Position numbers and translations under genes: made by a program. A stretch of DNA of 63,968 bases, counting the filler, from Bigelowiella natans CCMP2755 (lineage: Eukaryota; Protista; Cercozoa), in the NCBI GenBank assembly GCA_000320545.1. It is 6 parts of 6 records of this genome, joined end to end, with 100 filler letters (N's around TTAATTAATTAA, not from the genome) between each part and the next. Parts side by side here need not be neighbours in the genome. Positions count along the whole stretch, not along the records: positions 1 to 24,762 come from ADNK01000725.1; 5 more parts are not named here. One strand, 5' to 3'. Shown in pieces: positions 2,100-4,634 of the stretch. The notes beneath the pieces are model-generated. The model was not told the DNA's origin. It made no database searches and saw nothing but the letters and a program-made list of their open reading frames with translations. Every line of letters starts with the position of its first letter. Position 1 is the stretch's first letter.

Positions 2100-4634
2100 G
2101 CAGTGGTGCACGGACGCGTGTCGGCAGGACTGCATGAGTTCAGCATCCATCACGGCCAAACTCCACTTGGTAACCGCAAAAGCGCCTCAGTACACTAGCC
2201 GTGAATGCATGCATGCATGCAGCGAGTGTGGACAAATGCCAATTGCGCGGGCATGGCTGACACTTCGCGCGAGCCCATCATTGACGACCAGGCACGCATG
2301 CACCGCGCATGCACGCCCTGTTGCGTTTGAGAAATGAATGTGCTGCTGCGATGTGCGACAATGAGGCACAGGTGAGATGGATCATGCAAGATCTACGTAC
2401 CGCAGCATCCAACAAACATGAAAACAATGTGCACTGGTGCTCATGTGCTGTTCACCTGTCTGATCCAGCGCTAAATGAAGCGAGCAGACAAAGCGCGCCT
2501 GGATGCTCTCTGTCAGCCGCTCATCAACAACACTGAAACATTCTTGAATTTTGTCGGCTTTGTCATTCATCACGACACAAATGACAAACAAACAGATGCA
2601 TCTGGGGTCAAATTGCTGGAACCAGAATGTGTAAGGAATGGATGCACAACTGCAATTGTTTCTTTGTGCAAAGCAATGACCTTTGACCTGTCATCACTGC
2701 ATTTGTCATCAAAATTGCATTCCTTCATGTTGTCAGCATCCTCATGAGAGCCCTCAATTGCACGAAGACATCTTCTTGTTGTGAGAGCCAACATCAAAAT
2801 GCAAATCGTTGCTTTCTTGTCAAGCTTTGCGTGTTTCAGAATTTCAGATGAAAAATCCCGGTGTGGCAATTGATCTTCACAACCAGCCTCCCCGACAAAA
2901 GGAGCATGTGATCAGTTGCAACCATTTCCAACTCTTCACTTTCCTCATTCACACTTTTTTTGACATGGGAAACAGTTTGAGTTGCGCAATTAGAAGCCTG
3001 ACGCAAGCCTTCTTTCACATTGCGCACAAAATCCGTCTGGTTTGTCTTCAATTCCCTGCCTTCAAATTCTTCCTCAAAAGTTTCCAAAGTGAGGATGCAT
3101 GGCACTCACAAGGTTTTGTGCAATCAAAATCTGGGCAAATGGGGTCATTTGTTGCGCGTTCAAAACATTGCTGCATCTGCATCTATGGGTGGTCTGTTTG
3201 TTCTTCGAAGAGATCACAGTGTTTGGCACAAGCATTGACACGCACCTTCCGAGATCATGGAGGCAATGAACAATGAACAATGAACAATGACATGATGAAG
3301 AACTACACTTCCAAAATGCAACAAGACATTTGCAGTGCACGAAACGCAGTGCCTCGAACCAACTTTGGTGAGAACTGTCTGGTGAAACCAAAAGGAATCA
3401 AGAATGGCATTGGCAGCCACTCCTCCGTTCCTAGTTTCATTGTTTTCAGTGCCAAATTCAGGACCACGCATCCCCAAATCCTGTCGTGATGGTTTGCTCA
3501 TGCTTGGAGATCACCAAGCAAGAACACCACACCTGCGAACCCCAAGAGAACAATCCCATGGACCACACCTTCATGGTCTGCTTCACACCCACCACAACAT
3601 CCCCAGCTTTTGCGGAGACATTGCCCTCACTGGAAGGCATGAAGATGGAGGAGGATGCATTCTTCGTTCCTAGTCCATTTGGACAGCGAGCTTCGCAATG
3701 ACCACAACATCCCCGGCTTTTGCGGAGACAAAGCCCCCATCATTGCAATCAGAAGCACTGGCTTCACGCCAACCACAACATCCCCGGCCCAATGGAGACA
3801 TCACCTGGAGGGCACAAAGTTTGAGGAGGACACCTTCATCCTGACGGGATTCATCCGGGGTGAATGTTGGATGCAGATCCGAAAATCCTTCACTTGGCAT
3901 CCAATTCTCCGGTGGCCTGCCCCACCGGTGAACAGGAATGTGGCACAGGGATGAGGGGAAAAGCCACCCTCGTGACCGAAAAACCCACCACCCAGTGCCA
4001 TTTCGGCGAATGCAACTTTGAATCTTGAACACAGATCCACGCATCCTTCACTGTGCTGCCGAGTCACCGGTGGCTGGGGCGACAGGTCTGTCTACCCCAC
4101 CAGTGACCAGGAATGAGGAGGTGACCAACCCCCCCGCCCATCACCGCATCACACCATTTTTTTTCCGAATGCAACTTTGAATCTTGAATGCAGATCCATG
4201 CATCCTTCTGCCTGGTCACCGGTGGCTGGGGCGACATGTCTGTCCATCCCACCGGTGTCCAGGAATGTGGTTCAGGGGTAGGAGGTGACCAAACCCCCAC
4301 CCACATCACCGCATCGCGCCGCATCGGCGAAATTCAGAACGGAACAAAGTGTGTGGGTGTCGTCATGCAGTTTGGAGATGAGATTCGTTGGTTAGCGTCA
4401 CCTAGCTTGCCAACTAGTTTGGACCGACGAACTGCTTTGATGGGGTCCACCCGCGCGCATGAGGATGGTTGGGGTCAGGCTAGCAGGGGGAAAGGGAGGC
4501 AATGAACAATGAACAATGACAAAGAACCACATTTCCAAAAATGATCTCGAAATGTCATTGTTGAATCAAAGAACAGAGAGGATACCGATGAAATCAAGAA
4601 TTGCCCGTGAAAATTTGGCCCAAATTTTCACGGG
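2100..4634. pseudogene. TpA-depleted degenerate repeat or gene relic with internal direct repeats
   Basis: About 13 TpA in 2521-4620 by manual count. Translations are Tyr-poor and Cys/His-rich. Duplications include GGAGG(CAATGAA)n...AAGAAC[T/C]ACA at 3259 and 4495, ACCACAACATCCCC at 3591/3701/3772, and a ~155-bp duplication at ~4008-4150 / 4167-4316. Confidence 0.55.
4604..4634. repeat. Perfect inverted repeat with 15-bp arms
   Basis: CCCGTGAAAATTTGG-C-CCAAATTTTCACGGG, located at the right edge of the TpA-depleted block. Confidence 0.9.

What the first reader, a model, noticed from the sequence alone, without database searches (positions are those of the whole stretch)
2100..4634. Near-total loss of TpA in a repeat relic: candidate 'inverse-RIP' hypermutation
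Seen: only ~13 TpA in 2521-4620 by manual count, despite roughly balanced base composition, while TpA is abundant immediately after 4635. TG and CA are plentiful, and translations are Tyr-poor and Cys/His-rich. Eleven of the 13 survivors are in CTA/TAG context. Duplicated segments differ by TA versus CA (AACTAC at 3301 vs AACCAC at 4525; TCTAC at 4091 vs TCCAT at 4243). Established: fungal RIP and 5mC deamination create TpA or TpG and do not remove TpA. Inference: a repeat-targeted, context-dependent TpA to CpA/TpG process such as adenine modification or deamination, or error-prone repair. It would act as a genome-defence system; I cannot name a described mechanism for it.
Basis: partly seen in the sequence, partly recalled or inferred. 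Interest (0 to 1): 0.75.

Follow-up and report, generated by a model that had tools for sequence, protein, structure and literature searches.

The report
TA-erased repeat island in an alga
In the alga Bigelowiella natans, a 2.4-kb stretch holding a multicopy repeat and a broken gene has lost almost every TA letter pair, and a less-damaged sister copy still has TA where this one has TG or CA; this is likely the work of a host mutator that a 2026 preprint already described in this species, so it is real and odd but not new.

Summary
Confirmed. There are 13 TpA in 2521-4620 (O/E 0.09; lowest of 191 other windows 0.55), and 11 are CTA/TAG. The island runs ~2197-4638. The window is Bigelowiella natans (cathepsin 292/292 identical to a Bigna1 protein). 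The island holds a high-copy, retrotransposon-like repeat (3262-4350) and a frameshifted PhyH-like oxygenase pseudogene (2499-3212). A sister copy from a metagenome (L001, 87.5%) supports the direction: 32 of 68 mismatches are TA there versus CA (17) or TG (15) here, none the reverse. A>G follows T (33/77), not A (4/149). TA retention is graded: ~4% unflanked, ~21% with one C/G flank, ~84% in CTAG. CpG loss explains about a third of the CA/TG excess. The adjacent repetitive ankyrin gene keeps its TA, so repetition alone is not the trigger. The same TpA>TpG/CpA hypermutation was reported in this species (Mettrop et al., bioRxiv 10.64898/2026.01.13.699255). This scan also found it, and the CTAG sparing, earlier on other DNA of this genome. 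Most likely mechanism (inferred): a TadA/ADAT-type DNA adenine deaminase acting on silenced DNA. New here: copy-pair support in a non-viral repeat.

The parts
2197..4638 (.). TpA-depleted island (16 TA in 2442 nt, O/E about 0.10)
   Evidence: change-point fit; counts
2499..3212 (-). Frameshifted pseudogene of a PhyH-like 2-oxoglutarate/Fe(II) oxygenase family. Four pieces in three frames (3212-3138, 3096-2893, 2908-2585, 2597-2499), nearly colinear with the intact relative, so no obvious introns. Has an H-R-D...H motif; two Tyr of the relative are Cys (TGC) here. TA O/E 0.06 in 2628-3261.
3259..3283 (+). 25-nt direct repeat, left copy (identical to 4495-4519); overlaps a (CAATGAA)n tract; possible target-site duplication (inferred)
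3262..4350 (-). High-copy interspersed repeat with internal ~70-110-nt and ~155-nt tandem units and a short tandem tail at 3262-3290; likely the 3' part of a non-LTR retroelement or SINE-like element (inferred); 87.5% to L001
4495..4545 (-). Second, short tail fragment of the same family, including the right copy of the 25-nt direct repeat
4599..4639 (.). 41-nt near-perfect palindrome at the right edge of the island; role unknown
1179..2173 (+). Spliced host transcript (GT at 1447, AG at 1793) whose aligned part ends at 2173, close to the island's left edge; normal TA (O/E 0.64 in 1000-2196)
   Evidence: table 8 record 14
4834..8520 (+). Neighbouring ankyrin-repeat gene, internally repeated and multicopy, TA O/E 1.03 (negative control; start read from the sequence)

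Best explanation
This island has lost nearly all its TpA steps, a sister copy still has TA where it has TG or CA, and the cause is likely the TpA-specific host mutator reported in Bigelowiella natans, predicted to be a TadA/ADAT-type deaminase that turns A into inosine in silenced DNA. SHOWN here: the depletion; the TA versus TG/CA differences on both strands; the strict 5'-T context; graded sparing of C/G-flanked sites; coverage of both the repeat and adjacent low-copy DNA, with normal TA in the flanking genes. FROM THE PREPRINT: such changes arise de novo at about 1000 times the background rate in integrated viral DNA. That would disable coding and regulatory sequence, as a genome defence. 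I put the directional TpA process at ~0.95 and the deaminase chemistry at ~0.6.
For: Species: window cathepsin 292/292 identical to Bigna1 protein P0150, 97.6% to B. longifila. Direction: L001 vs window, 68 mismatches in 1128 columns; 32 are L001 TA vs window CA (17) or TG (15), 0 the reverse; 4 of 38 aligned TA kept. Context: A>G on both strands 33/77 after T, 4/149 after A, 6/168 after C, 2/134 after G. Three-state sites, which need a TA or CG intermediate: L001 TA, most genomic depth CA, window TG (L173, L183), and the mirror case at L567. With L001 as reference, run X1 shows A>G 16 and T>C 16 places versus G>A 5 and C>T 1. Flank gradient, island versus background O/E: unflanked 0.034/0.85, one flank 0.138/0.65, CTAG 0.53/0.63. 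Tyr>Cys in the pseudogene; two other B. natans paralogues have 0 Tyr in 249 aa and in their first 150 aa. Same spectrum de novo, and an ADAT2 candidate, in the preprint. Engineered TadA8e leaves genome-wide A>G/T>C at TA sites (PMC13225742, passages). B. natans TEs carry H3K9me3+H3K27me3 (10.1101/2025.03.17.643675, passages).
Against: No enzyme, chromatin mark or base modification was tested at this locus, and no genome was available. Polarity rests on one sister copy of unknown strain or species plus unphased contig alleles; L001 itself looks partly eroded (TA O/E 0.54). In the copy pair the flank effect is weak: C/G-flanked kept 4 of 21 vs 0 of 17, p=0.11; CTAG 2 of 4 vs 2 of 34, p=0.047. 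No per-strand rule emerged. RNA reads of the family carry eroded alleles too (X21: L146 187/280, L292 30/37, L397 21/23), so erosion does not simply track silence and no intact expressed master was shown. A>G on one strand cannot be told from T>C on the other, so thymine chemistry fits equally well. A viral origin of this island was not found. The two DNA runs laid showed no other letters in the unique pieces 1704-2627 and 4511-5449, so there is no sign of ongoing change there.
Confidence: 0.6

Rival explanations
1. A methyltransferase marks A in TpA (6mA or similar) in silenced DNA; the marked base deaminates or mispairs, so TpA decays as methyl-CpG does.
For: TpA is palindromic and the loss is strand-symmetric (17 CA, 15 TG). 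CpG is depleted in the same island, suggesting modified chromatin. Methyltransferases often have flank preferences (own knowledge).
Against: No paper with Bigelowiella + 6mA + adenine methylation in the library (0 hits). The near-exclusive spectrum at ~1000-fold rate in only some lines fits an inducible enzyme better than slow decay. Eukaryotic symmetric 6mA is usually at ApT (recalled), and ApT is not depleted (O/E 1.05).
Confidence: 0.15
2. The T, not the A, is the target: a TET/JBP-type or other dioxygenase oxidises T in TpA (5hmU/5fU), which mispairs with G and gives T>C.
For: Formally indistinguishable from A>G on the other strand in all data here. Thymine oxidation in kinetoplastids and dinoflagellates is recalled from memory.
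Against: No paper linking Bigelowiella, JBP, thymine and dioxygenase (0 hits). The proteome could not be searched. The PhyH-like gene in the island is a broken victim, not evidence of an enzyme.
Confidence: 0.12
3. An error-prone polymerase (Pol eta-like) copies or repairs these regions and misinserts G opposite T.
For: It would give A>G/T>C transitions; the Pol eta preference for TA over AA is recalled.
Against: Pol eta also hits AA strongly (recalled), but A>G after A is 4/149 versus 33/77 after T, and AA/TT are not depleted (O/E 1.19/1.36).
Confidence: 0.05
4. No TpA mutator at this locus: the family was TA-poor from the start, CpG decay made the CA/TG excess, and L001 gained TA by RIP-like C>T.
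For: CpG loss accounts for about a third of the CA+TG excess. A pair alone cannot be rooted.
Against: The unrelated pseudogene and single-copy DNA in the island are equally depleted (0.06, 0.12). Tyr>Cys changes against intact homologues. Three-state sites with TA in the middle. L001 is not CA/TG-poor as RIP would make it (1.26, 1.32). The de novo direction in this species is TA>TG/CA.
Confidence: 0.04

Closest known systems
   Same: Same species, same TpA>TpG/CpA spectrum on both strands, same compositional footprint. The paper also reports TpA-poor CDS enriched for transposase and RT domains and 124 genomic clusters.
   Different: The target here is a high-copy retro-like repeat plus an oxygenase pseudogene, with no viral match found. 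The paper's mutation calls excluded sites above 2x depth, and its evidence for TEs is compositional; here a copy pair supports it. Its main text has no 'CTAG', 'context', 'trinucleotide' or 'flank'; its supplements might.
Fungal repeat-induced point mutation (RIP)
   Same: Works like it: dense, dinucleotide-specific transitions on both strands that ruin mobile DNA and neighbouring sequence.
   Different: Opposite chemistry (RIP is C>T and creates TpA; recalled, and as cited in the preprint). The preprint's viral target is single-copy, and repetitive host genes here are untouched.
TadA/ADAT tRNA A34 deaminases and TadA8e adenine base editors (PMC13225742, passages)
   Same: A>G/T>C in DNA with a TA preference.
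   Different: TadA8e is engineered; natural DNA activity of the B. natans ADAT2 candidate is untested.
APOBEC3/ADAR antiviral hypermutation
   Same: Host deaminase defence with a dinucleotide footprint (as discussed in the preprint).
   Different: APOBEC is C>U on ssDNA and ADAR is A>I on dsRNA. Here the change accumulates in chromosomal DNA on both strands.

Membership tests
B. natans TpA hypermutation | Host is B. natans | tested here: met
   cathepsin 292/292 identical to a Bigna1 protein; one gene only
B. natans TpA hypermutation | Rho TpA <= 0.43 with CpA+TpG >= 1.52 | tested here: met
   0.094; CA 1.54, TG 1.61. At 2.4 kb the island is too short for the paper's three-window cluster definition
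B. natans TpA hypermutation | A>G/T>C transitions confined to TpA, both strands | tested here: met
   32 of 68 mismatches, 17 CA and 15 TG, 0 reverse; 33/77 after T vs 12/451 after other bases
B. natans TpA hypermutation | Target of viral, mobile or foreign origin | tested here: inconclusive
   high-copy repeat, but no transposase/RT or viral match; pseudogene relatives are in eukaryote transcriptomes and B. natans
B. natans TpA hypermutation | Elevated de novo rate at this locus | not testable with these tools
   needs per-line variant calls on long reads
Fungal RIP | C>T at CpA/TpG, creating TpA | tested here: not met
   TpA lost, CA/TG gained
Fungal RIP | Duplication suffices as trigger | tested here: not met
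   repeated ankyrin gene O/E 1.03 and perfect 228-nt inverted repeat O/E 0.86 keep TA; single-copy 2197-2627 is depleted. The inverted repeat is short and may be recent
Fungal RIP | Premeiotic timing, RID/DIM-2 dependence | not testable with these tools
   no genome or genetics available
Non-LTR retroelement / SINE (3262-4350) | Short tandem 3' tail with copy number falling away from it | tested here: met
   (CAATGAA)n at one end in window and L001; summed contig depth 23,277 at 3171-3337 falling to 1,224 at 4340-4506, single-copy ~80-105. The tool warns that depth is no copy number
Non-LTR retroelement / SINE (3262-4350) | RT/endonuclease ORF or tRNA-derived head | tested here: not met
   no Pfam hit above chance in six frames, no Rfam hit, no tRNA in L001; a 5'-truncated copy would lack them
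Non-LTR retroelement / SINE (3262-4350) | Target-site duplication | tested here: inconclusive
   25-nt direct repeat 3259/4495 overlaps the tail units; no empty site seen
PhyH-like 2OG-Fe(II) oxygenase (2499-3212) | HxD...H triad and family-level similarity | tested here: inconclusive
   HRD and a later H are present; Atlas best hits PhyH at 0.92 with 178 shared features; homologue P0160 hits PF05721 at E 7e-4, 20.3 bits, below the cut-off of 22; P0159 and the relic have no Pfam hit

The most novel reading that the evidence does not exclude
The B. natans mutator is a chromatin-guided natural DNA adenine editor. It erases TpA across whole silenced intervals, covering endogenous retro-like repeats and adjacent gene copies as well as viruses, and stops at the edges of active genes. 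Its D-TA-H preference (CTAG spared) would be the enzyme's recognition signature: a general heterochromatin mutator and the first natural genomic A-to-I defence system.
Probability: 0.35. Interest if true: 0.7.

Novelty: new member of a known kind. Interest (0 to 1): 0.33.

Why it matters
The process is remarkable (an adenine-side counterpart of RIP/APOBEC, possibly a natural DNA adenine editor), but it is already in a 2026 preprint for this species. This locus adds three things: copy-pair support that it reached a non-viral, high-copy repeat, a class the preprint's mutation calls excluded; signs that the unit of attack is a genomic interval rather than a duplication; and a graded flank rule against which candidate enzymes can be screened in vitro.

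Tried and rejected
No whole genome is held, so no genome-wide scan or proteome search. Pfam on nine read-through translations of the island gave only a weak rve hit (E 0.032), rejected as chance. PHROGs gave nothing, nor did Rfam (two hits, E 0.4-0.7) or ARAGORN on L001. Viral contigs held neither the tail motif nor a relative of P0159. The Josephin search did not identify the organism. The P0159 search returned only itself. No SET-like tail or N-terminal part of the pseudogene was found. From I first read 16 of 18 family C>T/G>A alleles at CA/TG as 'other copies keep TA', and RNA copies as TA-intact. One search showed that some are CA/TG swaps and that RNA reads carry eroded alleles, so both readings were dropped. 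Those 18 came from 37 of the 40 rows shown out of 390 (3 ankyrin rows dropped), selected by the tool. A family-wide CTAG test (0 of 6 vs 8 of 12, p=0.013) is weak: 26 of 66 rows were hidden, and three of the six sites are CTAG only in the family-majority allele. A test of which flank protects which strand was unresolved. The internal-repeat spectrum control recovered only 2 alignments per ankyrin gene and none for the element, so I rely on O/E instead. No RNA holder was listed by the run search. Literature searches found no report of this process other than the preprint; the library lacks most subscription journals. bioRxiv supplements were closed, so the preprint's mutation table and cluster list, which could hold the flank data or this locus, were not seen.

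Full report
Observation. There are 13 TA in 2521-4620 against 137.7 expected (O/E 0.094), with CA 1.54, TG 1.61 and CG 0.55. Among 191 overlapping 2.1-kb windows beyond 4700 the lowest TA O/E is 0.55 and the median 0.73. A change-point fit puts the island at 2197-4638 (left range 2080-2245, right 4572-4639). Against window background it lacks ~101 TA and ~47 CG and has ~148 extra CA+TG, so about a third of the CA/TG gain is CpG loss. Eleven of 13 survivors are CTA/TAG. Relative to background, retention is ~4% for TA with neither a 5' C nor a 3' G (3 seen, 88 expected by independence), ~21% with one such flank (8 seen) and ~84% for CTAG (5 seen); the counts are small.

Organism. No genome is held. 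The cathepsin at 57234-58109 has chlorarachniophytes as its best named relatives. It is 292/292 identical to a Bigelowiella natans Bigna1 protein and 97.6% to B. longifila.

Anatomy. Contigs laid on 1000-6000 show 2197-2627 as single-copy, 2628-3170 at about twice that depth, and 3171-4673 as highly repeated. Summed depth is 23,277 near 3262, falling to 1,224 at 4340-4506, against ~80-105 for unique DNA; the tool warns that this is no copy number. The repeat starts at a (CAATGAA)n tract, has internal tandem units, and is bracketed by a 25-nt direct repeat (3259, 4495); a short second tail lies at 4495-4545. RNA reads of the family lie on the strand opposite to those of a GT-AG-spliced + strand transcript, so the element is likely transcribed on the minus strand with the tract as its 3' tail. 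I infer a 5'-truncated non-LTR or SINE-like element; no RT, Rfam or tRNA match was found. The low-copy part, 2499-3212 minus, is a frameshifted pseudogene: 58% to P0159 (E 7e-30), four pieces in three frames, PhyH-like by the ESM Atlas (0.92) and by a sub-threshold Pfam hit of a homologue. Two of three aligned Tyr of P0159 are Cys (TGC) here and the third lies at a frameshift edge. Two B. natans paralogues have no Tyr in 249 aa and in their first 150 aa. On the left the island begins near the end of a spliced host transcript (aligned to 2173). On the right it ends at a 41-nt palindrome, before the AT-rich upstream region of an ankyrin gene.

Direction. One metagenome scan gave a sister copy, L001, 87.5% identical over 1130 columns with TA O/E 0.54. 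Of 68 mismatches, 32 are TA in L001 versus CA (17) or TG (15) here and none is the reverse; 16 are transversions and 20 other transitions. Of 38 aligned TA, 4 are kept (CTAC, CTAG, CTAG, CTAC). Counting both strands, A>G occurs at 33/77 A after T, 4/149 after A, 6/168 after C and 2/134 after G. With L001:100-620 as reference, run X1 differs at 16 A>G and 16 T>C places versus 5 G>A and 1 C>T. At L173 and L183, L001 has TA, most genomic depth has C at the T, and the window has TG; L567 is the mirror case. A pair cannot be rooted, but this star pattern, the Tyr>Cys changes and the measured de novo direction all point to TA as ancestral.

Results against my first readings. I first took 16 of 18 family alleles at CA/TG (from 37 of the 40 rows shown out of 390) as retained TA, and RNA copies as intact. 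One search showed swaps among them and eroded alleles in RNA reads (L146 187/280; L292 30/37), so neither stands. The flank effect in the copy pair is weak (p=0.11; CTAG alone p=0.047) and gives no per-strand rule. No viral origin was found.

Trigger. Repetition alone is not enough. The ankyrin gene at 4834-8520, internally repeated and with depth up to 21,612, has TA O/E 1.03, and a perfect 228-nt inverted repeat has 0.86, while single-copy DNA in the island has 0.12. Selection on exons and the shortness of the inverted repeat are caveats. An interval-wide process fits better. B. natans TEs and repressed genes share one H3K9me3/H3K27me3 state (10.1101/2025.03.17.643675, passages), but chromatin at this locus was not seen.

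Mechanism. Best (inferred, 0.6): a TadA/ADAT-type deaminase converts A in TpA to inosine on either strand of silenced DNA. Engineered TadA8e leaves the same TA-centred A>G footprint genome-wide (PMC13225742, passages), and the preprint names an untested ADAT2 candidate. Rivals: adenine methylation decay (0.15), thymine oxidation (0.12; indistinguishable by sequence), an error-prone polymerase (0.05; AA barely hit), and reverse polarity or composition (0.04).

Known work. Mettrop et al. (bioRxiv 10.64898/2026.01.13.699255; outline and parts 1-4 of 5 read) report that 231 of 302 de novo mutations fall in two viral inserts, all but one A>G/T>C at TpA. They also report TpA-poor CDS enriched for TE domains and 124 clusters. 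The main text does not mention flanks; supplements were closed. Seven paper searches found no other report. After I had found the preprint, the scan's own notes showed five earlier findings of the same process on other DNA of this genome, three noting the CTAG sparing.

Verdict. Real, correctly spotted, mechanistically open, but a further target of a process already described in this species. New member of a known kind; interest 0.33.

Noticed in passing
window 55751-55978 and 58645-58872: A 228-nt 100%-identical inverted repeat (right copy cut by an assembly gap) encloses a cathepsin gene. Directly inside both arms lie TA-free patches (55979-56257: 0 TA; 58360-58644: 1 TA), while the arms and the gene keep TA. 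56079-56136 is an old copy of the same tail family (73-79%). A possible gene-carrying element, or two inverted repeat copies.
   Followed up: partly
table 7, run X15, loose end before 4232: The loose end matches the inner end of the 55751-55978 arm, so some copies of the island's repeat family are joined to that second repeat.
   Followed up: no
P0159, P0161, P0162, P0163: The PhyH-like family has further B. natans members that look hypermutated (no Tyr). One relative carries a C-terminal SET-like domain (PF00856, E 4e-4, below cut-off), suggesting a mobile or expanded oxygenase-SET gene family.
   Followed up: partly
window 4599-4639: A 41-nt near-perfect palindrome coincides with the sharp right edge of TA loss; possibly an element end or a boundary.
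   Followed up: no
window 3248-3257 and 4540-4548: Short inverted match (GAGATCAT/ATGATCTC) flanking the two tail copies; may record an inversion at insertion, or chance.
   Followed up: no
window 4834-8520: Ankyrin gene built of many near-identical exon-intron units, highly multicopy in the genome.
   Followed up: partly
window 24763-24862, 55401-55500, 58873-58972, 61172-61271, 62703-62802: Five assembly gaps of 44 N + TTAATTAATTAA + 44 N; the 12-mer is a gap filler, not genomic sequence.
   Followed up: no
window 13496-14128 (+): Intronless Josephin-domain deubiquitinase gene (PF02099, E 2e-26).
   Followed up: partly
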